This document shows, piece after piece, positions 36,213-50,730 of a DNA stretch of 64,000 nucleotides. Below the pieces are notes generated by a model, which was not told the origin of the DNA, made no database searches, and saw only the letters and a list, made by a program, of their open reading frames with translations. The position numbers and the translations under genes were made by a program. The first letter of the stretch is position 1; each line of letters begins with the position of its first letter. This DNA comes from a candidate division WWE3 bacterium (lineage in GTDB: Bacteria; Patescibacteriota; WWE3; 2-01-FULL-39-13): contig CALRDH010000001.1 in the NCBI GenBank assembly GCA_943354835.1, forward strand, positions 46,460-110,459, read 5' to 3'.

Positions 36213-37280
36213 CTACTGATTTTTGAACACCAATGGCAAGTTTGTCCTGTAAAGACATTCTTGCTCCTCACCGCCGCCTTCGTACACGTAGCACACGTAA
36301 ATCGGTGTTGGCGTCGGGGTTACCGTCGCTGTTGCCGTCGGCGTGCTGGTTGGTGTCGACGTGCTCGTCGGTGTCGGCGTCGAACTCGGAGTACTGCTGG
36401 GTGTCGCACTCGGCGTCGGGGTAGCCACTGGCTCCTCAACATTCCAAATGGACGATCCACCCGCTGCGATAGTCGCACTTCGCGCCTCTGCCCATGTCGG
36501 CCAAGTCTTTCCATCCACTGCAGGGGAACCTGTTGTAAGGTACCAACCCCCTGGCGTGCACGGATCTGACATCGGCAATCTATTGGCTTCGGCCAAACTA
36601 CTTGTCACCCACGGGGATGACCCATCACAGAACCCACTCGGTGCCGCATCGAACATTGCTGTCGCGGTCGGGGTCGCTGTGGACGTGCTCGTCGGAGTAC
36701 TGCTTGGTGTCGCGGTTGGCGTGTTCGTCGCTGTGCTGGTCGGGACCGGCGTACTCGTTGACGTATTCGTCGCTGTGCTAGTCGGAACCGGCGTACTCGT
36801 TGACGTGTTCGTCGCTGTGCTAGTCGGAACCGGCGTACTCGTTGACGTATTCGTCGCTGTGCTGGTCGGGACCGGCGTACTTGTTGACGTATTCGTCGCT
36901 GTGCTAGTCGGAACCGGCGTACTCGTTGACGTGTTCGTCTCTGGGGTGGCTGTTGCCTCCCAGTGAATGCGCCATATCGACGATCCGCCTGCACTCACAG
37001 TTGCGTTTCTCGCTCCAGTCCATTCCGGCCACCTAACTCCGTTAAGGGTACCCACTCCTATTGTGAGGAATGGCCCTCCGGCTGGTGAACACGGGTCTTG
37101 AACGGGGAGCGCATCTGCCTCTTGCTGCGTACTCGAAACCCAAGGGGCCGATCCTGCACAGAATTGTGCGAGATTCGGCGATCCGGCGGTAACGATACGT
37201 GCAACGTAAGGCGAAAGCGTACTTCCTACGATGATTGCAAACGCAATCAAAGCCCTCAAAAACTTACTAATCTGAAACAT
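36213..37280 (-). CDS. secreted protein with two homologous ~70-aa Cys-containing domains joined by a Thr/Pro-rich tandem-repeat linker
   Basis: Signal peptide (MFQISKFLRALIAFAIIVGS) with AAGGAG 7 nt upstream of the ATG at 37280; the ORF track extends to a GTG at 37310. Domains: CAGSAPWVSSTQQEADALPVQDPCSPAGG...ARNATVSAGGSSIW and CDGSSPWVTSSLAEANRLPMSDPCTPGG...ARSATIAAGGSSIW. The linker is TNTSTSTPVPTSTA five times. GC3-rich codons. Confidence 0.6.
   Translation of the reverse strand: MFQISKFLRALIAFAIIVGSTLSPYVARIVTAGSPNLAQFCAGSAPWVSSTQQEADALPVQDPCSPAGGPFLTIGVGTLNGVRWPEWTGARNATVSAGGSSIWRIHWEATATPETNTSTSTPVPTSTATNTSTSTPVPTSTATNTSTSTPVPTSTATNTSTSTPVPTSTATNTSTSTPVPTSTATNTPTATPSSTPTSTSTATPTATAMFDAAPSGFCDGSSPWVTSSLAEANRLPMSDPCTPGGWYLTTGSPAVDGKTWPTWAEARSATIAAGGSSIWNVEEPVATPTPSATPSSTPSSTPTPTSTSTPTSTPTATATVTPTPTPIYVCYVYEGGGEEQECLYRTNLPLVFKNQ
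36716..36940. repeat. 42-bp tandem repeat (~5.3 copies) encoding the TNTSTSTPVPTSTA linker
   Basis: Direct reading shows GTTGACGT(A/G)TTCGTCGCTGTGCT(A/G)GTCGG(A/G)ACCGGCGTACT(C/T) repeated head-to-tail. Confidence 0.75.
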
Positions 37281-37612
37281 TCTGATTTTCTCCTTACTAC
37301 GAAAAAACACGGGTAGAGGTACTTCAACAACTAACTTATCCCGAGTTTTTTTCCGGATAATTTAGTTGCTGAAGTGTCTATCTTTTGTTTTTCTGTTCTT
37401 TGAAGATTGAATGTCTCTACATTGTCTCTATCTAACTTAGTTTGTAATATAACGCCTTGCACTTGCGTGCGCGGCTACTATTACTCACTTCGTTTGTAAT
37501 ATAGTGCCTCGTATGAGCATAAAGATTCCTAAAGATCCAGTCAGAATTTGATTGGCCTTTATTCGTCTAACTCATACTATTTAAAAGAACTACGCCTTTC
37601 GGCGTTTCCGAT

Positions 37613-37660
37613 TGCTAACGAGCGATTTGCTCCTTAGTCGGTTGAAGGATTTCCCGTCCT
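37613..37660. repeat. copy B of the conserved upstream motif (CTAACGAGCGATTTGCTCCTTAGTCGGTTGAAGGATT)
   Basis: 33 of 37 positions match copy C, and every mismatch is a transition. About 330 bp 5' of the 36213-37280 gene. Confidence 0.4.
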
Positions 37661-38078
37661 GCCCTTCGGAAAACCCTTCAATCGTTTTTGCTACTTATTA
37701 GGTTTTATTTAATGATCGATATCCTGTGAGGTTAACTTAATGGTTGCGGCCTGACAGGACCTTTCACTTAAAAAGCTATCAGTCGCTACAACTTGTGTTT
37801 GTAGCGTACTGCAGTATTAATACTGTAGGCTATTCAAGTGAAGGCTAATATTACTATAGGGCAATCAAGATGTCAAAGGCATGTACAGGCCGGGTACATG
37901 GGTAACACTTTTGAAAAACTATTGTACGAGTTTATCACCTTCTGTACATATTCTACTGGCGTGTCCTGTCCATGGCTCTCATGTGGCTTTTATGTATTGT
38001 ATTCATAGATTCCAAACTTGAAACTGCGGGTGTAAGCCCGTGGAGATTCATATAAAAGAATAATCGTCTACCTCTTTC

Positions 38079-39407
38079 TTAAAATAAGAACTTCTCAAGA
38101 TAGTTAACCATGTAAAATGGCAAAGAAAGAACATTATACCCATGTGCGGTTAGCTCTTTTTTAGGGTGTCCAGAATACAGTTTTACTGCAATTCCACCAT
38201 TGGTATCCGATAAAAAGCTGTCAATAGATTTCCCCTTCGAATCGTTATATTTAACTTCTATGGCTGTTATTTTACTGCTTCCTTGTATGCAGTAATCGAC
38301 TTCGGCACTCCCCTTTTTAGAGTCTTTCGTCCAATAATATAGCTGCTGTCGATTAGCCATATTATTTGCCAATATATTCTGCCCGATTATCTGCTCATAA
38401 ATCGATCCTTTATATGTATATCTGGTCTTGTCAATTTGTTCTGGTGTTTTAACTTGATACAAATAGTTCGTAAACCCTGCGTCAATAAATAATAACTTGT
38501 GTGGTGGCTTATTCTTTTTGTGAATCGGGACCTCTGTAGACCACGTTGCTGGTACCAAAGTTAATAACATGACTTTTTCTAGCAAAGTAAAAGCCTCTCT
38601 TACTTCTCTACTTTTATAGCCCGAATCCGCAAAATTATCGAATTTTATTAAAGAACCAGCATAATATGGTCCTTGTGTAATTATCAAATCGAGGTATTTT
38701 GTTTTAGAGGATGTCGCATACTTATACACATCATCTGCATACCCAGAAAGGATAGAATTGTATATGCTAGTTAATAAATTATTATTTCTATGTTCTGCAT
38801 AATTCGCAACTATTTCTGGCATTCCTCCTATTAAGGTATACAGCCTAAATAACTCTATTAATTCGACATGGATAACATCGATTACTTCGAGATTTAGCAA
38901 ATCAATTTTTTCGATATAACTTACAAATTCTTCTTTCCCTAAGGCCACAAGAAATTCTATAAAAGTTAATGGATTAAGATACGCATACTCAATCCGCCCA
39001 ACCGGAATAGAGACTCCAGTTTCGGTTATTGTGGCTTCGAAAAACGACCCAGCCGCTATAACATGGATATTGGGTCTTAATTCATAAAAGAACCGCAACA
39101 GTGTAATTAAATAAGGATTTACTTGTATTTCGTCGATAAAAACTAATGTTTTTTCGTTTACAAGCGATTTATTATATTTGGTTTTTAAAATATCTTCAAA
39201 TTGCTCTATGCTAATTTCCCCATCAAAGTTATCTCTATCTGCAATATTTTCTAAATTTAAATATATGTAATTTTCGAAATGCTCTGCGAAAATATTTACA
39301 GCCATAGTCTTTCCAACTTGCCTGGCTCCTCTAAGTATTAATGGTTTACGATCGGCTTTATCTTTCCAGTTAAGTAAATATTTATGAATAGCTCGTTTTA
39401 TTCTCAT
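38079..39407 (-). CDS. AAA+ ATPase of the AAA_14/DUF4143 type
   Basis: Walker A LILRGARQVGKT, Walker B VFIDEIQ, and a C-terminal DUF4143-like region. 442 aa. Confidence 0.65.
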   Translation of the reverse strand: MRIKRAIHKYLLNWKDKADRKPLILRGARQVGKTMAVNIFAEHFENYIYLNLENIADRDNFDGEISIEQFEDILKTKYNKSLVNEKTLVFIDEIQVNPYLITLLRFFYELRPNIHVIAAGSFFEATITETGVSIPVGRIEYAYLNPLTFIEFLVALGKEEFVSYIEKIDLLNLEVIDVIHVELIELFRLYTLIGGMPEIVANYAEHRNNNLLTSIYNSILSGYADDVYKYATSSKTKYLDLIITQGPYYAGSLIKFDNFADSGYKSREVREAFTLLEKVMLLTLVPATWSTEVPIHKKNKPPHKLLFIDAGFTNYLYQVKTPEQIDKTRYTYKGSIYEQIIGQNILANNMANRQQLYYWTKDSKKGSAEVDYCIQGSSKITAIEVKYNDSKGKSIDSFLSDTNGGIAVKLYSGHPKKELTAHGYNVLSLPFYMVNYLEKFLF

Positions 39408-39585
39408 CTTAAAAGAATACTACTTTAGTTTTCAAGTTGCAACTTACTTGTAACACACCAGGGAACAAACTAGTACTTACTTAAGACATTCCCGGGGTTA
39501 CAATTCAAGTGTAAGCGAAGAATTGCTAGCCGAACACGTAAGTGTGAGGCGTTAAATTGGATTTCTGTTCCGATCTACAAGCTAT

Positions 39586-39640
39586 TGCTTCTAGCGAACG
39601 ATTTGTTCCCTAGTTGGTCGAAAGATTCATCCTTCGATCA
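39586..39640. repeat. copy C of the conserved upstream motif (CTAGCGAACGATTTGTTCCCTAGTTGGTCGAAAGATT)
   Basis: About 180 bp 5' of the AAA ATPase gene 38079-39407. Also shares the TTCCGAT...ATTGCT block with copy B. Confidence 0.4.
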
Positions 39641-39833
39641 TTAATTTTTCATTCAAATATCCAATAAAACTCACTTTAAAAACGAACTTTAGTAGATACC
39701 CGACTCATTGTAATGATTAAAATTTGTTTTTTTTTGCTGGCTCGAATTGAGTCAACGAAACAAATCTTCTACAAGAAGTTGTCGCAAATGTCTTGGGACA
39801 TTAAGGGGGAAAATAAATTATAAACTAAAAATT

Positions 39834-41012
39834 TTACTGAATATAACCGCCCCACAGGTAGTCGTTAAATCTAGCAGACTCTTCTTTTCCTATCAACCGA
39901 TAATCTTTTATGCCCAGACTTTCACTTTTAGCACTTAGCTTAGACGAATCAATATCTGTCGGAGTTTCTTTTGCCTCTAACGATAGGCTTCTATTCAATA
40001 TAAAATCGATTTCGCCGTCTCTTTTTGAATAGTAGTTCAGATTTCCATAAAAAGATAATTGGTGGCATAATGTATTTTCGTATTTACTTCCGGATGATAT
40101 GTCTGCATTTAAATTTGCTATTCCCGTATCCACAAAATAAATTTTCCCAGCTTTTCTTGTCTGAACATTTATGGATTTAGAATATACTTCTATATTTCTA
40201 ATTAAATAAGTCTTTTCCAAAAATTCAATATAAGAATCTATCGTTGGTCTGCTAATGCCTAATATCTTTGAAATTTCGTTAACATTTGTATTACTTCCTA
40301 TACGTGAAGCAAGTAACTTTATTAATTTTCTTAAATTACTAGAAGATTTAAAATCTGCAATTGCTTCGATGTCTAAAGTAATATACGAACTAAATATTTC
40401 TTCCAGCAATAATCTTTTTCTTTCAATGTCTTCGGTAAGAACTATTTTAGGTAAACCACCATATTCTATGTATTCTCTATACAGTGGTGATAGAAGGTTA
40501 TATGCATTTTTATTAAATTCACCGTTTGTATCAATTTTTTCTGGCAAATCATAACCAACCCCTTTAAAATTTAGAAACTCTTGAAATCTTAATGGAAACA
40601 TTTCATAAATAACTTTTCTTCCTGCCATAGATTCAGAGAATTTATTTTTGATATAAAAAGAGCTCGATCCTGTTAAGAAAAATTTAATATTATAGTGATC
40701 ATGTAGGTATTTAACGATATCCGGAATTGTTTCGAGTAATTGTATTTCGTCAATAGCGATATATAACTTTTCGGCTATATTCAAACCCCTATTTTCAAAC
40801 TCATTTACCAAAGCATCAAAGTTTTTAGTTTCGAAAAGTTCTCTATCTGAAATATTTTGAAGATCGAAATAGATTTTATTCTTTGATTCAAGCTGGTCTA
40901 AAAGCCAATATATGGTTGTAGTTTTTCCGACCTGCCTTGGACCAGTTATTACAATAACCTCCTCCGTAGTTAGCTCTTTTTTCAATTTTGCCCAAATTAA
41001 ACGATTTTTCAT
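39834..41012 (-). CDS. AAA+ ATPase of the AAA_14/DUF4143 type (paralog)
   Basis: Walker A VITGPRQVGKTT, Walker B IAIDEIQ. Its leader sequence is related to that of the upstream paralog. Confidence 0.65.
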   Translation of the reverse strand: MKNRLIWAKLKKELTTEEVIVITGPRQVGKTTTIYWLLDQLESKNKIYFDLQNISDRELFETKNFDALVNEFENRGLNIAEKLYIAIDEIQLLETIPDIVKYLHDHYNIKFFLTGSSSFYIKNKFSESMAGRKVIYEMFPLRFQEFLNFKGVGYDLPEKIDTNGEFNKNAYNLLSPLYREYIEYGGLPKIVLTEDIERKRLLLEEIFSSYITLDIEAIADFKSSSNLRKLIKLLASRIGSNTNVNEISKILGISRPTIDSYIEFLEKTYLIRNIEVYSKSINVQTRKAGKIYFVDTGIANLNADISSGSKYENTLCHQLSFYGNLNYYSKRDGEIDFILNRSLSLEAKETPTDIDSSKLSAKSESLGIKDYRLIGKEESARFNDYLWGGYIQ

Positions 41013-41219
41013 GCTACTACTTTACATAAATGGACGGTTTTTGTAAAGTACAACTTGCACTACGCACACTTAACTATTCCTGTTTCTTCCGTATTCTTTT
41101 TTGTAATCTTTTGCAACCGCCCTAAGATTTATCCAGTTTTGAATCGTCATAGTAATTAAAAAGTGCACATTCTGCCCAATGTGTTACCTGTGTTTCTCAA
41201 CCTGTGCAGGGGGGCCAAT

Positions 41220-41933
41220 TCAAACAAATCGTCCTAATTCATTTCTAAAAACAACGTCGAAGTTACCAATAATATTATGCAAGCTTCTTGGAAGAAAAGC
41301 TTTTAGTTCAGATGAGAAATTTATCTTTGTGGTATTAAAGACATTTAAAACCTGTTTTAACAACTTTCTTTGATTTAGAGTTATCAATCCATTACGTAGC
41401 ATAAAATAGATATCGTAAAAATCCCTTGGCTTCTTTCGACTTATAGAAGCTTTTATCTTTTCTTCGACTAAATAATCTTGAGATAAAGAAAGTAACGTAT
41501 AGTCATTTACGAATTCGCTTGATATTACATGCATATCAGATTTCAATTCACCATTTTGTCTAAGCGACACCTGTATGCTTATTTCAATATTATAATCAAA
41601 AAATTTATAATAAATATTCGATAAATACTCACCAGACGTAGCTTTCGATACTAAAACGCCTACATCAAAGCCTTCTTTTGCAGAACAATCTAACGCCACA
41701 AGTATAGCTCCTTCAATTTTTTTTACAGTTAATGCAGAAGAAAATTCTAAATCTTCAGAAAACCTTGAACTGTTAAACACTATTCGCAAGGCGGTTCCAC
41801 CATTAAAATAAATTTCAGGATTACTAGCATAAAAATAAGACAAAAAAACATGTTGGCAATATTCTCTCGCTATATTTATTTCTGCCGTTTGAAATTTAAT
41901 AGATTTTTTCTTTATTTCCTGCTTGTCTATCAT
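41220..41933 (-). CDS. abiEii: AbiEii-like nucleotidyltransferase toxin (type IV toxin-antitoxin)
   Basis: YFNGGTALRIVFNSSRFSEDLEF matches the GGTAL...RFSEDxDF nucleotidyltransferase motif of the AbiEii/DUF1814 family. Overlaps the upstream antitoxin gene. Confidence 0.65.
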   Translation of the reverse strand: MIDKQEIKKKSIKFQTAEINIAREYCQHVFLSYFYASNPEIYFNGGTALRIVFNSSRFSEDLEFSSALTVKKIEGAILVALDCSAKEGFDVGVLVSKATSGEYLSNIYYKFFDYNIEISIQVSLRQNGELKSDMHVISSEFVNDYTLLSLSQDYLVEEKIKASISRKKPRDFYDIYFMLRNGLITLNQRKLLKQVLNVFNTTKINFSSELKAFLPRSLHNIIGNFDVVFRNELGRFV

Positions 41934-42746
41934 AATTTTCCTTAATCCACTTACTCAAACTCTTAGAATCAAATAATTCGGCATACTCTACAACATCTTT
42001 TTTATTCACTTTCTCTAGGTTTAATCTGTCGTTAAATGCAATCCTGCCCAATGAAACAAAATATAGATAATCAGCAACAGCTTTCTCTGGTTTAGCCATA
42101 TAATAGTTATCCATTTTGGTATATCCCGTAAAAGCTTTTGTTTTAACACTCCTGTATAAATATGACATATTATTTACATCAAACTCATTTGTGGTTTTAG
42201 TTGTCACACATGTAATTGAATAAACAACTTCAGGAATAAGCCCATATACAGAAAGGGCTGATTCTAAGGATATATACGAAGGTTTAATCAGATATGCCGA
42301 AATCGAATACGTACTCGGAATAAAGTCCTTTGAATAATAAAGTCCGTTCTTAATTTTTATAAAAAATCCATAAATTGCTCTTACTTTGAAATTCGTTAAA
42401 CGTGTTGTATCTCATTGGGGAAAGTATACAAAAGTGTATACTTTCCCCAATGAGAATACGAGTCATGAAAGTTATCGCACCAGTCTTTGTTAAATTGCTT
42501 TATGCTTTGATTTAAAGTGTTATCACTTTCAGGAACCAACATCTTTAATGTGTTTTTCATAAAGTATGGAAGGCTTTTTAGTTTTAAAATATCTGCGCTT
42601 TTCATTTTAGTAATGGTACTAAATACATGCCAATTCCAAAACGCGTCGAACAAATTGTCAAACACATGAAACTCCACGGGCTTAGGCCATAGTTTCATAC
42701 AGGGCATAAATTCTGGTATTTTTTGGATCCATATTAGTAACGGCAC
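41896..42746 (-). pseudogene. abiEi: AbiEi-like antitoxin gene split by a 44-bp palindromic insertion or frameshift
   Basis: The 103-aa ORF (AKPEKAVADYLYF) continues upstream in-frame without a start codon (...IKIKNGLYYSKD...SYISLESALSVYGLIPEVV) to a TGA at 42414-42416. The 116-aa ORF 42396-42746 is in the other frame. Deleting 42411-42454 joins them into one ~267-aa AbiEi-like ORF with wHTH TTRLTNFKVRAIYGFFIKIKNGLYY. Confidence 0.5.
42411..42454. repeat. perfect 19-bp inverted repeat with a 6-bp spacer (44 bp)
   Basis: CTCATTGGGGAAAGTATAC aaaagt GTATACTTTCCCCAATGAG. There are no mismatches in the arms. Confidence 0.85.
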
Positions 42747-42755
42747 TAAAAATCT

Positions 42756-43568
42756 TTATTGATATTCGGGTTCTACAACTTCGTATCTGAATCCAGGGTT
42801 TTGGATTCCTCCTGGGACTATCTGCGTAAGCACTGAATTTGGGACATACATAACAAGCGTATCGACCAACATACCCTCTGATGCGGGAATTATTACTATC
42901 GGAACAGCAATTGGAGCTGAATGACTACCGTCAGGACTCGTCATTTGAGGGAAATTCCCTAGCTCTGTTACACGAACACCACTACCACCAAGTCCATTCA
43001 TATGTGTTATATATTTGCTCAAAGGTGTTCTATCAGAAATAAAAGCTTGAGTATGCGATCCAGTATCTTCAATTCTTTGTACCCATAAACCAAAACCTCT
43101 ATCCTGAAAATTTTCGGTAACTCCTGGCACATTTTTAGGTTTGGGATTGATACCTTCTGGTGTGAAAGACATTTTCCATGCAGATCCGTCTGGATTATCT
43201 TGGTGTTTTGCTGGTGGTAATGGTATAAACATAAATAGATCACCAGATGGAAATTGTTCAGATGAAACGAAATCTTCACCGTACGCAACAGAATAAGCAT
43301 GCCTAACAACAGTTGAAACGCTGTCATAAACACCCGCGTAATTTTCGGCAACATACGCATTCGCATCCTTAAACGCTGGTTCAGGGCGATATCCTTGCTT
43401 TTCAGGGTTAGAAACAGACGGAACACAGGCAGCAACTAAAGCTGCTGCCGCGGCAACTCCTGCAGAACCTGCCAAAAATTGTCGTCTAGTCATACCACCC
43501 GAACCATCCGTACTACCCTGCCCAAAAGGTTCTTCTGTTGGATTTATTGTCATTAATTGATTACTCAT
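42756..43568 (-). CDS. Tat-signal lipoprotein, hypothetical
   Basis: Twin-arginine motif TRRQFLAGSAGVAAAAALVAAC with a lipobox-like VAAC. 270 aa. Intermediate GC. Confidence 0.45.
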   Translation of the reverse strand: MSNQLMTINPTEEPFGQGSTDGSGGMTRRQFLAGSAGVAAAAALVAACVPSVSNPEKQGYRPEPAFKDANAYVAENYAGVYDSVSTVVRHAYSVAYGEDFVSSEQFPSGDLFMFIPLPPAKHQDNPDGSAWKMSFTPEGINPKPKNVPGVTENFQDRGFGLWVQRIEDTGSHTQAFISDRTPLSKYITHMNGLGGSGVRVTELGNFPQMTSPDGSHSAPIAVPIVIIPASEGMLVDTLVMYVPNSVLTQIVPGGIQNPGFRYEVVEPEYQ

Positions 43569-43593
43569 AACGAAAAAATGATATCATAAAAAT

Positions 43594-46500
43594 ATGCCTG
43601 TCACATCAATTACTGGGCTTACGCCAGAAAATCAAGCTGAACCTTCGCCAATCGAAATAGCAATTCAAGCAATGGATTCAATAGATTTCGATCAACAATT
43701 GCCATTTGAAGCACGCACTGGATTAACAAGCACTTCACGAAAAGCATATGATCTGCCCCCAGAAAAGGCCGCTGAAATAGTAGCCTATGAAGCAGAACAA
43801 AACAAGGGATATGCCATCGATCAAACCTCACCACCGAGAACTTTTTTCCAAACCCCTACAGAAATTATAGAATACACTGGCACTGATATCGACCAATCTA
43901 GGTTAGCAACGGTAACAGCGATTTATTACGCCACAAGTGCCAGAGAAGGCTTAAATGAAACTGAAGCAACAGCCCAAGCTGGTAAAAAAGAAAACCAAGG
44001 GGCAGGCAGTCATAATTTTGGCCTGAAATTTCTTGCTAATTTAGTAATAACTATTGGTAAGGCTCGATTAAAAATCCTATCGAGATACAACCATCCAAGA
44101 CAAGGACCTGTTGTTTGGGCCGGTGAATACAAGCAAAAAGAAGCTCATAGTGGCATAGGACATCAACTAGCTCTTGATTATCTGAAAGAACAAGATGGAA
44201 AGGGTGATTTACCGCATATAGCATATTCAACATTAATGAAAATAGAAAATCCACCAACAGAATTAGTGCAAGCAGCAGCAAACATGCATAAACGTTACAT
44301 ATTATCTGATCCACATTACCAACATGCCAAATTAGTACAGCCGGCAGAAAACACTTTAGTAAATATAACGGAATTCGATTATAGCCATGCTCACTATGAA
44401 CTACTACCAAGGGGCATACATGCACTCGAAGCCAGTGTAGACAGAAACGGATTATACAAAGCTGCTGCGGTTGACTGGCTAGCTCTTGAAGACCGTGAAA
44501 TTAGATTTCTTTTGCCTTTGGCAATAAGACCATCACCAGAATCAACATACTCGCCGACAAGAAGCCTAGACAGCGGATCCATGTTAAATGGTGAATACAC
44601 AAGATACGCAATCGAAGATCAAATGGAGAAAGGTAATATCCCTTTATTACAACAAATTGTTTTGCGAATGCGCGAGAGTGGATTATATACAGATTTAATC
44701 GTAGGAATAGACGATAAATGGGACAAACGACTAGTTAACTTACCAATCGAATTACGTACTAGAAGTTATAAGACTTCGCCTTGGACAAGGGAAACAAAAA
44801 ACTTTTTTGACGAATTTATAAGTCATGATATGGATGTAATTGCGATGGGTAGCCTATCAGAATACGCCCGTTTATGTGATCTATACAATAGATTAAGCCC
44901 TCAAGTAAGGGTCAAACTTAAAAATTACAAGTTAGCTTTAGTCGGAGATGATTTAAAAGCACAAATGTGCCTTTCTGGCGCAATAACCATCGACACACTC
45001 GAACGCCGCATTGACGACATGGCTGAAATTCAAAGCTGGAAACACGATGAAACCTTTAATCAAGTGCCATTTAATCTTCCATTATTATTACAAGACGTAG
45101 CTAAAGATCCAGGCTTAAAAATAAGCTTTAGTGGATCAACGATAAGTGTTTCACAATCAGGTTATCACCCAATTCGATTAGATCCTCATCGTCAGTTGAT
45201 GCATGGCGATTTGTTCACTTTAGTAGAACAAACTGCTCAAAACGCTCTGTTACGGGACCTCATTAAATTCATATTATGGGCTGAAGCAAAGCGCAATACA
45301 AGAACGATGGCAATCGCAAGAGTATCGATGTCTCAAGGCAAAACCAAACTTGAGTCAAGTTATCGACCGATAAAAGGTACCAATCAAATCCCAATATTAA
45401 GCCATACAGAACAGATCAAAAACAGAAGAAACATTGCGTACCCGCAAATAATGGTAAGAATAGATGGATTAAGCGATGAAACCTTTGAAGAAGTTAGTAG
45501 ATTGTATGAAGATTTCCGTGCGGCCATTTTGAAAGAAAAAGAGATAAAAAAAGAAAATTTAGACAGAAATCTAAAACTCAAAGTTGCGGAACTATGGCGA
45601 AGGAAAAAAGAAAACAGACAAAAATTAACCCGTGACAAAAAGATTCGAATGGAACAAAGTGTGGCGCAAAGCCCTGAAGAAAGAGTGTCTACAGAAACAC
45701 TTAATGTTTGGCAAGCAAGGGCTTCATCAGCAATCCATCATCTAACTTGGATATTATCAACATCTATACTGGCCGGCTCACACGGAAGAAGCCGAGAGGC
45801 GCCAAAACAGCCGAGCAGGCGAGACCTGTTTAGATCAGCCTTTTCAAGTATCGAGTTGAATAACGACAAGGCAAGACCATTGGTGGCTGGGAGGCTTGAT
45901 GATAATGCGGCAAGCAACTCACCAATATCATTTGGAAGTGCTCTGTTACCTGGTCGATCAGAATCACTCGAAAACGCCACGGTTCCCGACCCTATCGAGC
46001 TAAAAGCGTCTCATCCAGGTGTCTTAAAATCCGGCTATTATCTCAATCGTTTATATCATAAAATGCCGGTTGATCCATATCACTTTATAGATCCTCCAGC
46101 CGAAATGACACGTATACAAATAAGAAACGGAAAACCAGAAAGCGAACATCACATTGCAGTTGTATATGATTCAAAAGCAGATGAAGTGACAATACCATTA
46201 AAGCTTGGCGCCACTGTGAATTCTTATACTGGTCCATCCGCGGAGTTCTTTGTTGACACAAACTCACAAACATTAAAAGCAAAAATACTTGGGGATAAAA
46301 GCAAACCCTTAAAGGCTTATATTACTGAAAAAGGAGATTCTAGCGATGTCTATTCACCATGGGCAAATATAGCTAATATGCCAGTAACAGAAGATGATGT
46401 CGCTCCTCTCATTGACATAAGCTTATTATCAAACGAAAATGACCGTCTTGCATTGCAAGCAATAAGAGACTTAGATGCACATACAGATATAAAAATAGCA

Positions 46501-47319
46501 ATGATAACGAAATTTTGGGAGCTCAAGTACGCATACTCTAAATTCACACCACCAGACATGACTTACGAAACATTAGTCACAATGGCCGAAGGCCCATGTG
46601 GGCTATCTGCAATTGGACTCGTTGCCTGCTTACGCGCTGTCGGAATCCCCGCAATTTATGCGAGTGGATTCCTAAACGACAAAGACAACGAACTGACAGA
46701 CAAAGAATTGCATGGTTTTGTATACGTCCATGATGGTTCTATATGGCGCGCGATCGAACCACAAAACGGAAGATTCACTCAAGAAGAAATTCAGACTGCC
46801 GAGATAATAAATCGTGGTGCGCCAACATTTGCGATATCAAATTCAGCAGGACAGCTTACACAAGTAAAACTTGGTGGAAACCCACTAACACTTCGCGATG
46901 CTTCAGGGGTACTTACATCTGCTGAAAACACAGCAAATCCAGCTATCATGGCTACACTTGAAACCGTCCTTAACGTTCCACAAAATGGCGAGACTATGGC
47001 AAATACTAAGGGCAATTCCGTAACTCAGCGTTTACAAACGCCACAAGAAAAGCAATTAGCAAGCAATCAACCTGAAGAGGAGAACCTGAGCGATGCGTCA
47101 CTAACATTACCAACAACCACAGATGGCAACAATGTTATTACAACTATCCTTTCTGAAAATAAAAAAACGGCGACTTATGCGGGTGGAGTACTTCTGGCCG
47201 CAGCTGGAGTAGGCGGAGTACTTAAAGGCATACAAATTGCTACACGGCGTGCATACGCAAGAGGATTTGATGAAGCATATGATGAGGTACTTCATGCAAT
47301 CCAGGATACATTGCTATAA
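43594..47319 (+). CDS. giant hypothetical protein (1241 aa) with a C-terminal transglutaminase-like cysteine peptidase core
   Basis: GPCGLSAIGLVACLRAVGIPAIYASGF...HGFVYVHDGSIWRAIEP fits the Cys/His/Asp transglutaminase-like superfamily signature. No N-terminal signal peptide. A hydrophobic segment lies near the C-terminus (YAGGVLLAAAGVGGVL). Confidence 0.55.
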   Translation: MPVTSITGLTPENQAEPSPIEIAIQAMDSIDFDQQLPFEARTGLTSTSRKAYDLPPEKAAEIVAYEAEQNKGYAIDQTSPPRTFFQTPTEIIEYTGTDIDQSRLATVTAIYYATSAREGLNETEATAQAGKKENQGAGSHNFGLKFLANLVITIGKARLKILSRYNHPRQGPVVWAGEYKQKEAHSGIGHQLALDYLKEQDGKGDLPHIAYSTLMKIENPPTELVQAAANMHKRYILSDPHYQHAKLVQPAENTLVNITEFDYSHAHYELLPRGIHALEASVDRNGLYKAAAVDWLALEDREIRFLLPLAIRPSPESTYSPTRSLDSGSMLNGEYTRYAIEDQMEKGNIPLLQQIVLRMRESGLYTDLIVGIDDKWDKRLVNLPIELRTRSYKTSPWTRETKNFFDEFISHDMDVIAMGSLSEYARLCDLYNRLSPQVRVKLKNYKLALVGDDLKAQMCLSGAITIDTLERRIDDMAEIQSWKHDETFNQVPFNLPLLLQDVAKDPGLKISFSGSTISVSQSGYHPIRLDPHRQLMHGDLFTLVEQTAQNALLRDLIKFILWAEAKRNTRTMAIARVSMSQGKTKLESSYRPIKGTNQIPILSHTEQIKNRRNIAYPQIMVRIDGLSDETFEEVSRLYEDFRAAILKEKEIKKENLDRNLKLKVAELWRRKKENRQKLTRDKKIRMEQSVAQSPEERVSTETLNVWQARASSAIHHLTWILSTSILAGSHGRSREAPKQPSRRDLFRSAFSSIELNNDKARPLVAGRLDDNAASNSPISFGSALLPGRSESLENATVPDPIELKASHPGVLKSGYYLNRLYHKMPVDPYHFIDPPAEMTRIQIRNGKPESEHHIAVVYDSKADEVTIPLKLGATVNSYTGPSAEFFVDTNSQTLKAKILGDKSKPLKAYITEKGDSSDVYSPWANIANMPVTEDDVAPLIDISLLSNENDRLALQAIRDLDAHTDIKIAMITKFWELKYAYSKFTPPDMTYETLVTMAEGPCGLSAIGLVACLRAVGIPAIYASGFLNDKDNELTDKELHGFVYVHDGSIWRAIEPQNGRFTQEEIQTAEIINRGAPTFAISNSAGQLTQVKLGGNPLTLRDASGVLTSAENTANPAIMATLETVLNVPQNGETMANTKGNSVTQRLQTPQEKQLASNQPEEENLSDASLTLPTTTDGNNVITTILSENKKTATYAGGVLLAAAGVGGVLKGIQIATRRAYARGFDEAYDEVLHAIQDTLL

Positions 47320-49185
47320 GAATAACCCATACTTATTAATTCGCTCTTCCACCGCATCTTTGTTTACCGACGGCGCGGCTTTTTGTATTAGTTCGCTGGC
47401 TTTTTGAATGTCACCTTTTTTAATTTGCATATCGGCCATATATACATAATCGTCGCTGAAGTTTCTGGCGTCAAGTTTGATTGTTTTTTCGAAGTTTGCA
47501 TAAGAATCATCGTAGTTTTGACGGGCATAGTATAAAACTCCTAGATAGTGATAGCTTAATGGATCACGCTTATTAAGCGAAACTGCCTTGCTTAAGGATT
47601 CTATAGATCTATCGTCGGCTTTTTTCAAGTAATACATTCCCAAATAGAAATTTGTCTTAAAATCATCAAATCCTGCATACTTTATGTCTATTTTCTCTTT
47701 CATTTTCTCAATATCTCCGCTCCAATATAGAAGAGCAATATATTTGCTAAAAAGGCTTTGCTTAAAAGGATTGTATTTAATAGCTTCTTCTTGAAGTTTT
47801 AAAGATTTTCTAAAATCCCCTTCTAACATAGATGCTTTTTCAAATTTCTCGGAATAACCAATTTGGCTAAACATCAAAGCGCTAAGAAGAAGCGGGAAAA
47901 TCATAAAAAGGACGAAAAGCTTTGATATTAGGGCTTTTTTTATTGTTCCATTTGAAAAAGCTAATAAAGAACCAATAAAAAAAGCCGCGTAAACATAGTT
48001 TATAACGGAATAAAATTCAAACATTCCTTTAACAAAGGTTATTAGAATCGCAAATTTTATATATTTTGATAAATAGAAATCCTTGGAATCGACAATAAAA
48101 AACACATACACAAAAAATGCCGACATAGCTAAAAGCCCAATTAAGCCAGTTTCCACAAGTATATCGACGATTTGGTTGTGAGAACTTTCAACTTCCAAAA
48201 ATAAAACTTCCTTTTTATCATTCATTGGATCCAAGTACATTGGATAAACGTTTTGAAAGTTCGCATTTCCATATCCAAAAATTGGCCTATCTTTAAATGC
48301 TCTAATTCCTACTCCCCACAGGTCAAAACGCTTGTCGTATAACCCGTTTCTGTCTTTGAAGCTTAAGAATCTTTCTACGTTATATGGCAAATCTAGCTTT
48401 TCAGTATCGATTGGAGGAGTTAATACCAAAAGTGCGAATAATAAAAACGGCACAACAATCCAAGAAATCCGAATCTTTTTATTGCGGATAAATGAAAAGG
48501 CTTCTAAATAAGCAAATATTGCGATTCCGATTATAGCGCCTCTTGATCCTGTAATGAAAACTCCAGTAAAAAGTATGGCCAATGAAATCAGGTTCCATTT
48601 TGATTTAAATTTCGATGATTTTAGTAAACCGTAAATTATAGGAATAACACTTGCCAAAATTCCGCCGAGTAAATTTGGTTGTCCAATTGTTGCTGTAGCT
48701 CTTCCGTCGTAGCTTAAATCAATAATTTCAAAATACAATAAAGTGCCATGGATAATGGTTAATGTTCCAAGTAAAACAGCTCCAAAAATCAAAAATTTAA
48801 GTGATTTATTTGTTTTTTCAAGCTTTCCTGAATGAGCAAAATAGAAAACAAGTCCTAGATAACTTATAAGTGCCAATATTGAATCGTTTTGAATGGCGTC
48901 TCCAGCAAAACTTCTGAATGGAATTATAGAACTCGAAAGGTTCAAATAGCTCAATGCAAAAAACGCTAACGCTGCAATTAAAACTGAAATCTTGAGTTCT
49001 GTTTTTTTAAACAGCAAAAAACCGCACAAAATAGCGGAAATCAAAGACACATACATAAGCTTTGGAAGCTCATAAACGCTCAACAGTGATCCCGAAAAAA
49101 GCAATGGAACAAAAACAAAAAGAAAAAACAAAACTAAATTTTCGATTCCAAAAAACAAACTTTTCACACTTTTCACATAATTCAT
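47314..49185 (-). CDS. polytopic membrane protein, O-antigen ligase/Wzy_C-like with C-terminal TPR repeats
   Basis: About 12 transmembrane helices with a large loop, then TPR-like repeats (YHYLGVLYYARQNYDDSYANFEKTIKLD). Confidence 0.55.
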   Translation of the reverse strand: MNYVKSVKSLFFGIENLVLFFLFVFVPLLFSGSLLSVYELPKLMYVSLISAILCGFLLFKKTELKISVLIAALAFFALSYLNLSSSIIPFRSFAGDAIQNDSILALISYLGLVFYFAHSGKLEKTNKSLKFLIFGAVLLGTLTIIHGTLLYFEIIDLSYDGRATATIGQPNLLGGILASVIPIIYGLLKSSKFKSKWNLISLAILFTGVFITGSRGAIIGIAIFAYLEAFSFIRNKKIRISWIVVPFLLFALLVLTPPIDTEKLDLPYNVERFLSFKDRNGLYDKRFDLWGVGIRAFKDRPIFGYGNANFQNVYPMYLDPMNDKKEVLFLEVESSHNQIVDILVETGLIGLLAMSAFFVYVFFIVDSKDFYLSKYIKFAILITFVKGMFEFYSVINYVYAAFFIGSLLAFSNGTIKKALISKLFVLFMIFPLLLSALMFSQIGYSEKFEKASMLEGDFRKSLKLQEEAIKYNPFKQSLFSKYIALLYWSGDIEKMKEKIDIKYAGFDDFKTNFYLGMYYLKKADDRSIESLSKAVSLNKRDPLSYHYLGVLYYARQNYDDSYANFEKTIKLDARNFSDDYVYMADMQIKKGDIQKASELIQKAAPSVNKDAVEERINKYGLFL

Positions 49186-49212
49186 ATTACAGATAACTTA
49201 CCAAAATGGATA

Positions 49213-50730
49213 TTAATTACTTATTGGAAAACTTAAAATATCAGAAAGAACATCCGAAATAGTCTCGGAAATTGGAGTTGAGACGATGTCTGAAATAATC
49301 TCCGAGATTGGATTACTTATAACATCGCTGGTTGGAGTCGATGTTATGCCAGAAATTGGATTGCTGATGACATTAGAAATTCCGTCCGAAATTATTTCTG
49401 AGATTGGGTTACTCACGATGTTGCTAATTCCATCGCTAATTGGAGTTGATGTAATTTGTGATATTGGATTGCTGATAACATTTGAAATTCCATCCGAGAT
49501 AATCTCCGAAATCGGGTTACTAACGATGTTGCTGATTCCATCACTAATTGGATTTGAGGTTATTTGTGATATTGGACTTGAAACGATGTCCGAGAGAATC
49601 TCCGAAATTGGGTTACTAATTACATTCGAAATCCCATCCGAGATGATTTCCGAAATCGGGTTGCTTACGATATTGCTTATTCCATCGCTGATTGGATTTG
49701 AAGTTATATCAGATATTGGACTCGAGATGATGTCCGAGATTATCTCTGAAATTGGATTACTTACGATATTTGAGATTCCATCAGAGATGATTTCTGAAAT
49801 TGGATTACTTAGGATGTTACTAATTCTATCACTGATTGGGCTTGATGTTATGCCGGATATTGGGCTTGAGACGATGTCAGAAATTATTTCTGAGATTGGG
49901 TTACTTACAATATTACTGATTCCATCGCTGATTGGACTTGAGACAATGTCTGAAATTATCTCCGATAATGGATGACTTACGATATTACTAATTCCATTAC
50001 TTAACGGAGTACTTAAAATTACAGATGTCGGATTTGATAGTGGATCTGAAATTATTGGAGAAATAATATCTCCCTGTACTTCAACAAAAAACAAATGTTT
50101 TGATGTTTTTGAAGACTGATTTGCCTTGTCTATTGCTTGAACTTGCACTTCATAAATTCCAAGTGCTGGCCTTACTAAAATAAAAGTGTGAACAGGCTTT
50201 TCAATCACTTCAGAAACCATCGACCCATTAATAAAAAGTCTTGTGTACTTCAAATCATTATCAATTACACGAACAGAAATATTTACATTTTGCCCAAATT
50301 TATACCTTGCCGCAATAAATGACGTATCAGTAAACAAAATAATTGGAGGTGTATTTATTCCGGAAGAATCATCGTTATCGTCGTCGTCATCATCGTCGTC
50401 GGAATCTTCATCGTTATTATCATCATTATTATTGCTTGTATTTTGAATAGTTGAACTTTTTGCGTTTCTTCTACCTGAAGAAAGTACTAGATTCTCAACC
50501 TTTTTAATAACCTCATCAATTTTGCTATCGGACAAAACACTTCCTAAATTTGACTCTACATCATTCGTGACATAATCATCACCATTAATTTTATTAATAA
50601 AATATCCAATTGAAAGTCCAAGAGAAACCCCTGCAATAGAGGTCAAAAGCCAATAAATCCACTTACTCTGTAATTTTAATAACAAGCTTATAATTTTATT
50701 CACGAAAATGTTTATGGACAGAACATTCAA
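49213..50730 (-). CDS. membrane-anchored repeat protein: poly-acidic stretch, Ig-like segment, and a long C-terminal (x-x-I-S)n tetrapeptide-periodic array
   Basis: N-terminal transmembrane helix, NDDNNDEDSDDDDDDDDNDD, then about 280 aa of NPIS/EIIS/DGIS/NIVS units with a 12-nt period. Confidence 0.5.
   Translation of the reverse strand: MNVLSINIFVNKIISLLLKLQSKWIYWLLTSIAGVSLGLSIGYFINKINGDDYVTNDVESNLGSVLSDSKIDEVIKKVENLVLSSGRRNAKSSTIQNTSNNNDDNNDEDSDDDDDDDDNDDSSGINTPPIILFTDTSFIAARYKFGQNVNISVRVIDNDLKYTRLFINGSMVSEVIEKPVHTFILVRPALGIYEVQVQAIDKANQSSKTSKHLFFVEVQGDIISPIISDPLSNPTSVILSTPLSNGISNIVSHPLSEIISDIVSSPISDGISNIVSNPISEIISDIVSSPISGITSSPISDRISNILSNPISEIISDGISNIVSNPISEIISDIISSPISDITSNPISDGISNIVSNPISEIISDGISNVISNPISEILSDIVSSPISQITSNPISDGISNIVSNPISEIISDGISNVISNPISQITSTPISDGISNIVSNPISEIISDGISNVISNPISGITSTPTSDVISNPISEIISDIVSTPISETISDVLSDILSFPISN
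49216..50050. repeat. 12-nt-periodic degenerate tandem repeat array within the coding sequence
   Basis: Units such as ATTGGATTACTTACGATATT / ATCTCCGAAATTGG recur throughout. This produces a long antisense ORF artefact (49286-49975). Confidence 0.6.

What the first reader, a model, noticed from the sequence alone, without database searches (positions are those of the whole stretch)
38079..42746. Accessory island: two tandem DUF4143-type AAA ATPase paralogs immediately next to an AbiE module
Two divergent paralogs (442 and 392 aa; Walker A RGARQVGKT and TGPRQVGKT), each with its own long leader, sit beside an AbiEii nucleotidyltransferase toxin and its split AbiEi partner. They are directly downstream of the foreign high-GC gene. 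AAA_14/DUF4143 ATPases have no characterised function. Their clustering with an abortive-infection-type module, within a compositionally mixed region, suggests a defence or accessory island that may include an uncharacterised ATPase-based system.
Basis: partly seen in the sequence, partly recalled or inferred. Interest (0 to 1): 0.5.

Follow-up and report, generated by a model that had tools for sequence, protein, structure and literature searches.

The report
Two known-candidate ATPase-nucleases beside decayed AbiE
The region holds two unrelated copies of a very common, already catalogued but unproven phage-defence candidate (an ATPase fused to a nuclease), next to a broken abortive-infection toxin-antitoxin module; the genes are real but ordinary and do not form a new system.

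Summary
Both ATPases carry AAA_14 + DUF4143 and match PADLOC's PDC-S01, a single-gene phage-defence candidate. The literature calls it one of the most abundant 'defence' calls in prokaryotes. It has not been validated: one test against T4/T5/T7 showed no protection.

Structure prediction shows a STAND/Orc-like NTPase with a winged helix, followed by a C-terminal PD-(D/E)XK nuclease with invariant catalytic residues.

The two copies are 25% identical, belong to different subfamilies and are not a conserved pair. Their closest orthologues occur singly, in different contexts. ATPase1 is a single-gene cassette acquired late by horizontal transfer (dS 0.33, against 1.5-2.2 for flanking core genes) and is under purifying selection (dN/dS 0.07).

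AbiEii is intact. AbiEi is a pseudogene: an 86-nt frameshifting deletion removes its winged helix. The ORF upstream of it is a relic of a second AbiE module.

The 'foreign' high-GC gene is syntenic in a relative, so it is native.

Verdict: a variable toxin-antitoxin/defence hotspot in a Patescibacteria-like chromosome, made of known kinds of genes. Low interest.

Side lead: the 768-nt ORF-free stretch at 37311-38078 is extremely hairpin-dense, with a core that shows compensatory changes in a relative.

The parts
38079..39407 (-). ATPase1: PDC-S01-type protein, 442 aa. It has a STAND/Orc-like P-loop NTPase, a helical domain, a winged helix and a C-terminal PD-(D/E)XK nuclease. Walker A is G27-T34, Walker B is D92-E93, and the nuclease motif is D371...E384-x-K386.
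39408..39496 (-). 5' region that travels with ATPase1. It is about 89-95 bp and conserved with the orthologue of a distant relative. Together with the ORF it forms a roughly 1.4-kb horizontally transferred cassette, 38086-39496.
   Evidence: 92.2% nt over 1411 bp, against 66-71% for core genes; similarity starts about 95 bp upstream and stops at the stop codon; dS 0.33 against 1.5-2.2.
39834..41012 (-). ATPase2: second PDC-S01-type protein, 392 aa, of a different subfamily and 25% identical to ATPase1. Walker A is G24-T32, Walker B is D88-E89, and the nuclease motif is D336...E346-x-K348. It has a clear HTH signal at residues 228-275.
   Evidence: (PDLC04789/04787, about 1e-62).
41019..41049 (.). 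Palindrome ACTTTACA-N15-TGTAAAGT, 6 nt upstream of the ATPase2 ATG. It reads as TTTACA-17-TAAAGT on both strands, so it is promoter/operator-like. It is 91% conserved with a relative's spacer between AbiEii and MazE.
   Evidence: (one match, 0 expected).
41220..41933 (-). AbiEii nucleotidyltransferase toxin, 237 aa. It is full length relative to its family. The GGTAL...SEDLEF and RDFYD motifs are present.
   Evidence: homologues are 235-252 aa, 100% coverage. The motifs were read directly from the translation.
41896..42415 (-). abiEi pseudogene. It starts at the ATG at 42415 (MRYNTFNEFQSKSNLWIF). An 86-nt frameshifting deletion at about 42362-42371 removes roughly 29 codons of the winged helix. 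The rest (GFFIKIKNGLYY... to the stop) is intact and overlaps abiEii by 38 nt.
   Evidence: (orthologues L095 and L096; L096 371-452 matches 42443-42362 and L096 529-1674 matches 42371-41223).
42410..42455 (.). Perfect 21-bp inverted repeat with a 4-nt loop. It overlaps the abiEi start codon and is also present just upstream of abiEi in L096. It is probably the abiE operator, or the terminator of the preceding module.
   Evidence: (I2).
42456..42605 (-). Relic of a second AbiE module. 42463-42496 encodes KDWCDNFHD, which is homologous to the C-terminal tail of a relative's 265-aa AbiEii. The preceding 38 codons look like an AbiEi N-terminus by eye only.
   Evidence: 11/16 aa identical, E 3e-6; 88.6% nt over 35 nt. 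No Pfam or PADLOC hit for the ORF.
38033..38051 (+). Left copy of a 19-nt inverted repeat, TAAGCCCGTGGAG(A/T)TTCAT, that brackets the four-gene block.
   Evidence: I6; 2 matches, 0.02 expected.
42666..42684 (-). Right copy of the same 19-nt inverted repeat. It lies within a small hairpin downstream of the TAT-signal protein gene.

Best explanation
The segment 38-42.7 kb is part of a variable chromosomal hotspot in a low-GC Patescibacteria-like genome. The hotspot has collected independent small defence and toxin-antitoxin genes. It holds two unrelated single-gene PDC-S01 units and the remains of two AbiE modules.

Each PDC-S01 protein is a STAND/Orc-like P-loop NTPase (nucleotide-binding domain, helical domain, winged helix) fused to a C-terminal PD-(D/E)XK nuclease.

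Proposed mechanism (inferred, not shown): the winged-helix/NTPase module binds nucleic acid or an invader-derived cue. ATP binding drives a conformational switch or oligomerisation, as in other STAND and Orc/Cdc6-type ATPases. This licenses the nuclease to cut DNA, which restricts invading DNA or kills the infected cell. Each gene acts alone, from its own promoter.

ATPase1 arrived late by horizontal transfer as a 1.4-kb promoter-plus-ORF cassette and is kept functional by purifying selection.

The AbiE module has an intact toxin gene. Its antitoxin/repressor gene has lost the DNA-binding winged helix through an 86-nt deletion, so the module is decaying. At best it relies on an internally initiated C-terminal antitoxin fragment.

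Shown: gene content, domain folds, conserved catalytic residues, lack of a conserved partner, horizontal transfer, the deletion. Inferred: the defence role, the trigger, the nuclease target.
For: Family and architecture:
- Pfam and PADLOC assignments.
- AF2 model with pLDDT 89.7.
- Walker A/B and D...ExK are invariant in both subfamilies.
- DUF4143 is listed as PD-(D/E)XK in PMC3424549.

Status as a defence candidate:
- PDC-S01 was catalogued by guilt-by-embedding (10.1101/2024.01.29.577857).
- It is described as an ATPase fused to PD-(D/E)XK and as the fourth most common defence call (PMC12988326).

Independence of the genes:
- 25% identity between the two ATPases.
- The ATPase1 orthologue (95% aa) in L003-L006 has no ATPase2 nearby.
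- ATPase2 orthologues (62-77%) occur alone next to glycosyltransferases, an integrase/Prim-Pol element, or RadA.

Horizontal transfer and selection:
- ATPase1 is 92% nt identical to the relative's copy, against 66-71% for RecJ and other core genes.
- dS 0.33 and dN/dS 0.07, against dS 1.5-2.2 for core genes.

Hotspot:
- The relative carries AbiE x2, Phd/PIN, MazE/PIN and NYN at the same place, next to RecJ.
- Immediate neighbours of 80 homologues hit 139 PADLOC families, against 44 for control ORFs 6-10 kb away.

AbiEi deletion.
Against: - No PDC-S01 member has been shown to defend against phage. One representative tested in E. coli B against T4, T5 and T7 was not among the four candidates that protected (10.1101/2024.09.26.614923).
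- Most immediate neighbours of homologues have no defence-model hit, and several homologues sit among housekeeping genes.
- The nuclease activity, the trigger and any oligomerisation are untested.
- 14 of 80 related loci carry a second, usually divergent, DUF4143 ATPase within 10 kb. Cooperation between copies is therefore not excluded.
- An intact AbiEii beside a broken AbiEi is unexpected if the toxin is active.
Confidence: 0.6

Rival explanations
1. The two ATPases, with or without AbiE, form one integrated multi-gene defence system. An example would be a sensor/helper pair like paired NLRs, or ATPases that control the AbiEii toxin.
For: - The genes share one strand in a compact block.
- 14 of 80 related loci have a second DUF4143 ATPase within 10 kb, mostly of a different subfamily.
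- 5 of 141 immediate neighbours are PDC-S01, against 1 of 148 control ORFs.
- AbiEi appears among immediate neighbours and not among the top control families.
- L018 (Kerfeldbacteria) has an ATPase1-type gene, an AbiEii-like gene and an ATPase2-type gene within 7 kb.
Against: - The closest orthologues of each ATPase lack the other.
- ATPase1 was transferred as a single-gene cassette whose similarity ends at its own promoter and stop codon.
- Spacers of 207 and 426 bp, each with its own promoter-like element, argue against an operon.
- Only 3 of 80 loci have an AbiEii nearby.
- AbiEi is a pseudogene here.
- The family is so abundant and multi-copy that some clustering is expected.
Confidence: 0.06
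2. DUF4143 ATPase-nucleases are selfish, self-propagating genes rather than host defence. They could be addiction-like or homing-like elements that use their own nuclease to spread or to persist. Their association with defence islands would then only reflect shared integration hotspots.
For: - Single-gene cassette transfer between genomes whose core genes are saturated at synonymous sites.
- Presence next to an integrase/Prim-Pol element and a TraG-like gene.
- No defence phenotype in the one published test.
Against: - No terminal repeats, target-site duplications or recombinase travel with the cassette.
- Strong purifying selection (dN/dS 0.07) fits both a host-beneficial and a selfish function.
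- Candidates found by being embedded in BREX, DISARM or type I RM systems validated as defences at a high rate in the Hma-embedded test set.
Confidence: 0.15
3. The ATPases are DNA-binding regulators or DNA-repair/maintenance factors with a housekeeping role. Their position next to AbiE would be accidental.
For: - Many homologues sit among ordinary metabolic or envelope genes.
- ATPase2 has HTH hits resembling ArsR/CasR-type regulators.
- The fold is closest to Orc/Cdc6-like and PF01637 ATPases.
Against: - The genes are not conserved at fixed loci, are absent from close relatives, and are horizontally transferred.
- They occur in multiple divergent copies per locus.
- The nuclease triad is conserved.
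- Immediate neighbours are enriched for defence-model hits relative to distant controls.
Confidence: 0.1
4. The whole four-gene block (38033-42684) is one non-autonomous mobile or invertible element, bounded by the 19-nt inverted repeats.
For: A 19-nt inverted repeat with one mismatch brackets the block exactly: 28 nt past the ATPase1 stop, and about 60 nt upstream of the first AbiE relic. About 0.02 matches are expected by chance.
Against: - There is no transposase or recombinase inside, and no target-site duplication was seen.
- The block's parts have different histories: ATPase1 was transferred alone, the ATPase2 orthologue sits at a syntenic glycosyltransferase-adjacent site without the rest, and the AbiE orthologues are elsewhere.
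- The repeat is absent from all related loci.
- Each copy is itself part of a small hairpin that could simply be a terminator.
Confidence: 0.05

Closest known systems
PADLOC phage-defence candidate PDC-S01 (Pfam AAA_14 PF13173 + DUF4143 PF13635; COG1373)
   Same: Both ATPases match PDC-S01 models end to end (1e-134 and 2e-62). They have the same two Pfam domains, the same ATPase plus PD-(D/E)XK architecture as described in the literature, and a single-gene organisation.
   Different: Nothing substantive differs. They are new sequence variants: 41-48% and 50-77% identical to their nearest non-orthologous relatives. The family itself remains functionally unvalidated.
Avs / antiviral STAND NTPases and NLR-type STAND proteins
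   Different: There is no large C-terminal repeat/TPR sensor domain. The nuclease is C-terminal rather than N-terminal. The protein is only about 400-440 aa. The best matches are the small archaeal PF01637 ATPases (2qen, 2fna), which have no known function.
PD-(D/E)XK effector nucleases of defence systems (Can2/Can1/Card1 of type III CRISPR, McrC of McrBC)
   Different: There is no CARF or SAVED ligand-sensing domain. In McrBC the ATPase and the nuclease are separate proteins and the ATPase is a GTP-specific AAA+ hexamer. Sequence identity is only 7-14%.
AbiE type IV toxin-antitoxin / abortive-infection system (AbiEi-AbiEii)
   Same: An AbiEii nucleotidyltransferase of typical length. The upstream abiEi overlaps it by 38 nt. 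A palindrome lies at the promoter/start, as expected for AbiEi autoregulation (own knowledge: Dy et al. 2014; Hampton et al. 2018).
   Different: abiEi carries an 86-nt frameshifting deletion that removes the winged helix. Upstream lies only a relic of a second module.

Membership tests
PDC-S01 (PADLOC candidate) | Significant full-length match to a PDC-S01 profile | tested here: met
   ATPase1 matches PDLC04788 at 1e-134 (residues 1-440 against profile 1-440 of 448). ATPase2 matches PDLC04789 at 1.8e-62 and PDLC04787 at 8.7e-62.
PDC-S01 (PADLOC candidate) | AAA_14 ATPase domain followed by DUF4143 | tested here: met
   Both domains score above the Pfam gathering thresholds in both proteins.
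PDC-S01 (PADLOC candidate) | Single-gene unit with no obligate partner | tested here: met
   The orthologues have different neighbours. ATPase1 was transferred alone.
PDC-S01 (PADLOC candidate) | Protection against phage or other invaders | not testable with these tools
   The literature says validation is pending (PMC12988326). One representative was not among the protective candidates against T4, T5 and T7.
STAND / Orc-Cdc6-like P-loop NTPase | Walker A and Walker B motifs conserved | tested here: met
   (G27-T34, D92-E93 invariant). (G24-T32, D88-E89 conserved in at least 97% of sequences).
STAND / Orc-Cdc6-like P-loop NTPase | Nucleotide-binding domain, helical domain and winged-helix architecture | tested here: met
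STAND / Orc-Cdc6-like P-loop NTPase | Nucleotide-dependent oligomerisation or switching | not testable with these tools
   Needs biochemistry or cryo-EM.
PD-(D/E)XK nuclease superfamily | Restriction-endonuclease-like alpha-beta-beta-beta-alpha-beta fold | tested here: met
PD-(D/E)XK nuclease superfamily | Catalytic D...(D/E)xK residues present and conserved | tested here: met
   (D371, E384, K386 invariant; E338 invariant). (E312, D336, E346, K348).
PD-(D/E)XK nuclease superfamily | Nuclease activity | not testable with these tools
Avs (antiviral STAND) | Large C-terminal repeat (TPR-like) sensor domain that recognises a phage protein | tested here: not met
   The model is fully accounted for by the NTPase, helical domain, winged helix and nuclease in 442 aa. 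There is no repeat domain. It may work like an Avs protein but is not filed as one.
AbiE (type IV toxin-antitoxin / abortive infection) | AbiEii nucleotidyltransferase toxin | tested here: met
   It is full length. The GGTAL...SEDLEF and RDFYD motifs are visible in the translation.
AbiE (type IV toxin-antitoxin / abortive infection) | Intact AbiEi with an N-terminal winged helix and a C-terminal antitoxin domain | tested here: not met
   There is an 86-nt deletion and frameshift relative to the orthologues L095 and L096. Only the C-terminal part is intact (PADLOC AbiEi positions 95-193).
AbiE (type IV toxin-antitoxin / abortive infection) | Bicistronic abiEi-abiEii arrangement with overlapping or adjacent genes | tested here: met
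   The abiEi frame ends at 41896 and abiEii starts at 41933, a 38-nt overlap.
Transposon / MITE bounded by terminal inverted repeats | Transposase or target-site duplication associated with the inverted repeats | tested here: not met
   There is no transposase-like ORF in 38033-42684. No flanking direct repeat was seen. The repeat is absent from related loci.

The most novel reading that the evidence does not exclude
Divergent DUF4143 ATPase-nucleases might cluster on purpose. Heterotypic copies, such as ATPase1 and ATPase2 here, could co-assemble or back each other up in the way paired NLRs do. Alternatively, these single-gene cassettes could spread autonomously using their own nuclease. Either reading would give the most abundant unvalidated 'defence' family a concrete and unexpected biology.
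Probability: 0.07. Interest if true: 0.6.

Novelty: new member of a known kind. Interest (0 to 1): 0.2.

Why it matters
For the finding as given, it matters little. A standard PADLOC run would label the region PDC-S01, PDC-S01 and AbiE.

Three results add modest value:
1. There is a clean case of a PDC-S01 gene moving as a 1.4-kb promoter-plus-ORF cassette between genomes whose core genes are saturated at synonymous sites, and under strong purifying selection. This supports the view that these abundant, unvalidated genes are functional, mobile, single-gene units.
2. Structure-based evidence shows that the family is a STAND/Orc-like NTPase plus a PD-(D/E)XK nuclease with no solved relative. That makes it a reasonable target for biochemistry.
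3. The AbiE module here is an example of toxin-antitoxin decay with the toxin still intact.

The hairpin-dense non-coding stretch next door may be the more original lead.

Tried and rejected
1. MITE insertion in abiEi. I first read the abiEi break as a 113-120-bp insertion flanked by AGCAATTTA repeats. Excising it does not restore the frame. The orthologues L095 and L096 show instead an 86-nt deletion plus a relic of another module. Rejected.

2. RNase P fragment. I considered that the TAAGCCCGTGGAG repeat could be a 3' fragment of RNase P RNA. There is no Rfam hit even at E<=1, and the motif is absent from the relative. Dropped.

3. Solved structures. Sequence searches of the PDB with either ATPase, or with a 36-sequence profile, found no relative.

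4. Wasted metagenome scan. My one metagenome-contig scan for the conserved RNA core was mis-specified: I wrote a gap of 8-12 where the true gap is 7. It returned 10 chance hits in unrelated high-GC DNA, so the scan was wasted. A correctly specified pattern (checked on the loci) found only a chance hit in viral contigs.

5. Promoter and terminator scans gave no more hits than shuffled sequence.

6. The 426-bp ATPase2-ATPase1 spacer, beyond the 89 bp conserved with the cassette, has no homologue in any fetched locus. It shows no gene remnant and only moderate structure (z -3.1).

7. Limits of the neighbourhood enrichment. It was measured only as family counts, using crude ORF calls and a 6-10 kb control. 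It is indicative, not a proper statistic.


Full report
**Observation.**
- ATPase1: 38079-39407, 442 aa, Walker A RGARQVGKT.
- ATPase2: 39834-41012, 392 aa, Walker A TGPRQVGKT.
- AbiEii: 41220-41933, 237 aa.
- A 103-aa ORF: 41896-42207.
- A 116-aa ORF: 42396-42746.

Pfam finds AAA_14 plus DUF4143 in both ATPases and PF08843 in AbiEii. PADLOC models call both ATPases PDC-S01 (1e-134 and 2e-62). They also call AbiEii, and they place the 103-aa ORF on the C-terminal half of AbiEi. The two ATPases are 25% identical.

The ATPase and AbiE genes have the local GC content of 29-35%. The GC-rich parts are 36-37.3 kb (55%), 37.3-38.1 kb (43%) and 42.8-47.3 kb (about 40%).

**Setting.** The rest of the window is core chromosome: four Mur ligases, MurB, Ddl, Alr, SecDF, AlaRS, LepA, RNase J, RecJ and RuvX, with four scattered PIN-domain genes. 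The named best hits of the ATPases and of AbiEii are Patescibacteria/CPR (Kuenen-, Woese-, Roizman-, Pace- and Levybacteria). The organism is therefore probably a Microgenomates-type CPR bacterium. This is an inference from hit names only. The same sequence occurs on two metagenome contigs.

**What the ATPases are.** PDC-S01 is one of 145 'phage defence candidates' added to PADLOC because members were found embedded in BREX, DISARM or type I RM systems (10.1101/2024.01.29.577857). Surveys describe it as follows:
- It is the fourth most common defence call in prokaryotes, an ATPase fused to a PD-(D/E)XK domain, with validation pending (PMC12988326).
- It is the most frequent single locus in rumen genomes (PMC13356809).
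- One representative was tested against T4, T5 and T7 and was not among the four candidates that protected (10.1101/2024.09.26.614923).
- DUF4143/COG1373 was already listed as PD-(D/E)XK in 2012 (PMC3424549).

No solved structure is detectable by sequence.

Walker A, Walker B and the nuclease residues are invariant among 36 ATPase1 relatives (G27-T34, D92-E93, E338, D371, E384, K386). The equivalents are at least 97% conserved among 120 ATPase2 relatives.

**Are the two ATPases, or the ATPases and AbiE, a unit? No.**

ATPase1 has a 95%-identical orthologue (P0001) on four contigs of a related organism. There it lies next to RecJ, in this string of genes: AbiEii(203 aa), Phd/PIN, AbiEi/AbiEii(265 aa), MazE/PIN, ATPase, NYN. 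No second ATPase is present.

At the DNA level the ATPase1 cassette (window 38086-39496) is 92.2% identical to that orthologue. RecJ, the S11 peptidase, RuvX and a 497-aa gene are only 66-71% identical. The similarity starts about 95 bp upstream of the ATG and stops at the stop codon.

Nei-Gojobori estimates:

| Gene(s) | dS | dN/dS | aa identity |
|---|---|---|---|
| ATPase1 | 0.33 | 0.07 | 95% |
| Four core genes | 1.5-2.2 | 0.17-0.29 | 45-59% |

ATPase1 therefore moved as a single promoter-plus-ORF cassette long after the two genomes diverged, and it is under purifying selection.

More distant ATPase1 relatives (41-48% identical) are solitary among unrelated genes. They occur in at least 593 species across many phyla.

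ATPase2 orthologues also occur alone:
- The 77% orthologue sits beside the same glycosyltransferase/1250-aa gene cluster as in the window, without ATPase1.
- The 73% orthologue sits beside a serine recombinase, Prim-Pol and NYN.
- The 62% orthologue sits beside RadA and a TraG-like gene.

In 80 genome loci fetched with the ATPase1 profile, 14 have a second DUF4143 ATPase within 10 kb, usually a divergent one. Three have an AbiEii detectable with my narrow profile.

The immediate neighbours of the 80 genes (141 ORFs) hit 139 PADLOC families at E<=1e-8. 148 control ORFs lying 6-10 kb away hit 44. PDC-S01 is found in up to 5 neighbours against 1 control ORF. AbiEi is found in at least 2 neighbours and is not among the listed control families.

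So there is mild co-localisation with defence genes and with other copies, as expected for hotspots. There is no obligate partner, and most neighbours have no defence hit. This analysis used crude ORF calls and family counts and is only indicative.

**AbiE.** AbiEii is full length compared with 120 relatives of 235-252 aa. It shows the expected GGTAL...SEDLEF and RDFYD motifs (read).

AbiEi is not simply split. The orthologues on L095 (79-83% nt) and L096 show the following:
- The real start is the ATG at 42415. The window reads MRYNTFNEFQSKSNLWIF where L096 reads MRYLDFLEFQQKNKLEIF.
- L096 371-452 aligns to 42443-42362, and L096 529-1674 aligns to 42371-41223. The window therefore lacks 86 nt.
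- The deletion shifts the frame and removes about 29 codons of the winged helix.
- The remainder, from GFFIKIKNGLYY to the stop at 41896, is intact.

A perfect 21-bp palindrome (42410-42455) overlaps the start codon. It is also found just upstream of abiEi in L096. From my own knowledge that AbiEi represses its promoter through inverted repeats (Hampton et al. 2018), this is probably the operator.

Upstream, 42463-42496 encodes KDWCDNFHD. This is homologous to the C-terminal tail of the relative's 265-aa AbiEii (88.6% nt; 11/16 aa). The 116-aa ORF is therefore largely a relic of a second, deleted AbiE module. Its first 38 codons look AbiEi-like only by eye.

Published work shows that the AbiEi C-terminal domain alone can neutralise the toxin (Dy et al. 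2014; own knowledge). An internally initiated fragment might therefore still protect the cell, but this is speculation.

**Other corrections.** The 'foreign' high-GC gene (36213-37310) encodes a signal peptide followed by Thr/Pro/Ser/Ala-rich repeats. The relative has a ~50% GC, T/P-rich secreted-protein region at the syntenic position. The gene is therefore native, and its GC content reflects its amino-acid composition.

The 'long leaders' break down as follows:
- The proximal 89 bp of the 426-bp spacer belongs to the ATPase1 cassette.
- The 207-bp spacer carries, 6 nt from the ATPase2 ATG, the palindrome ACTTTACA-N15-TGTAAAGT. It reads as TTTACA-17-TAAAGT on both strands.
- That palindrome is 91% conserved with the relative's AbiEii-MazE spacer.

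**Mechanism.** The best-supported reading is two independent single-gene NTPase-nuclease units. ATP-dependent switching of a STAND/Orc-like module with a winged helix would license a PD-(D/E)XK nuclease against invading or host DNA. Only the architecture, the conserved catalytic residues, the mobility and the selection are shown here. The defence role and the trigger are inferred, and the one published test was negative.

The rivals are an integrated multi-gene system, selfish mobile genes, a housekeeping regulator, and a mobile block bounded by inverted repeats. They are weighed in the rival section of this report.

**Verdict.** This is a variable toxin-antitoxin/defence hotspot built from known kinds of genes. 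A routine PADLOC run would annotate it. Interest is low.

**Side observation.** The ORF-free 768 nt between ATPase1 and the T/P-rich gene (37311-38078) is exceptionally hairpin-dense. The folding z-score is -8.3 on the minus strand and -7.4 on the plus strand. The syntenic spacer of the relative scores -7.6. No Rfam family, tRNA or tmRNA was found there.

A 116-nt core (37569-37684) is 77.5% identical to the relative. On the minus strand it forms three hairpins in both genomes (z -4.9 and -6.2):
- Hairpin 1 keeps the loop GGGCAGGA and shows a C-G to U-A change.
- Hairpin 2 shows a U-A to C-G change.
- Hairpin 3 keeps a GNRA tetraloop on a completely different stem and is followed by a conserved U-rich tail (and direct reading).

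With only two distinct sequences this remains a lead. My metagenome scan for more copies was mis-specified and wasted.

Noticed in passing
window 37311-38078 (core 37569-37684, minus strand); L003 12453-13091: A 768-nt ORF-free, 43% GC stretch that is extremely hairpin-dense: z -8.3 on the minus strand, -7.4 on the plus strand, and -7.6 for the syntenic spacer in a relative. There is no Rfam, tRNA or tmRNA hit. A 116-nt core conserved at 77.5% forms three hairpins in both genomes, with compensatory changes and a GNRA-loop hairpin followed by a U-rich tail. It may be a new structured RNA, or the leader of the downstream secreted-protein gene.
   Followed up: partly
window 38033-38051 (+) and 42666-42684 (-): A 19-nt inverted repeat, TAAGCCCGTGGAG(A/T)TTCAT, with one mismatch. 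It brackets the ATPase1-ATPase2-AbiE block exactly. About 0.02 matches are expected by chance, and the repeat is absent from related loci. Each copy lies in a small hairpin. Its meaning is unknown; it could be a pair of terminators, a recombination site, or chance.
   Followed up: partly
window 41019-41049; L003 8844-8886: The palindrome ACTTTACA-N15-TGTAAAGT lies 6 nt upstream of the ATPase2 start codon and reads as a sigma-70-like promoter on both strands. It would imply a leaderless or near-leaderless mRNA. It is 91% conserved with a relative's spacer between AbiEii and MazE/PIN, so it may be a promoter/operator module shared among hotspot genes.
   Followed up: partly
window 38050-38069 and 59877-59896: An exact 20-nt repeat, ATATAAAAGAATAATCGTCT, is shared between the spacer just past the ATPase1 stop and the inside of an ORF 21 kb away (59599-60657). 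The BLAST E-value is 4e-5. It is unexplained.
   Followed up: no
window 36213-37310; L003 13000-14100: The 55% GC gene encodes a signal peptide plus six 42-nt tandem repeats coding for NTSTSTPVPTSTAT. It is syntenic in a relative, so it is native. Assemblies break inside it (L002 ends there and L003 has Ns), so repeat number may vary.
   Followed up: partly
window 42756-50730 compared with L003 5315-5651: Between RecJ and the toxin-antitoxin hotspot, the window carries about 8 kb that the relative lacks. It holds a TAT-signal protein, a 1241-aa transglutaminase-like protein (~40% GC), a Wzy_C/TPR protein and a 505-aa protein. This is a second variable segment at the same hotspot.
   Followed up: no
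window 37432-37457 and 37484-37509: Two copies of a 26-nt direct repeat (CT[AC]ACT[TC][AC]GTTTGTAATATA..GCCT, 85% identical), 52 nt apart, inside the structured non-coding stretch.
   Followed up: no
window, elsewhere (for example 5988-6404, 20013-20432, 24969-25355, 26371-26772): Four PIN-domain ORFs and one PDC-M05A-type nucleotidyltransferase hit are scattered among core cell-wall and translation genes. Small toxin-antitoxin genes pepper this chromosome well outside the flagged block. Pfam and PADLOC returned counts only, so the listed ORF assignments are my guess from size.
   Followed up: no
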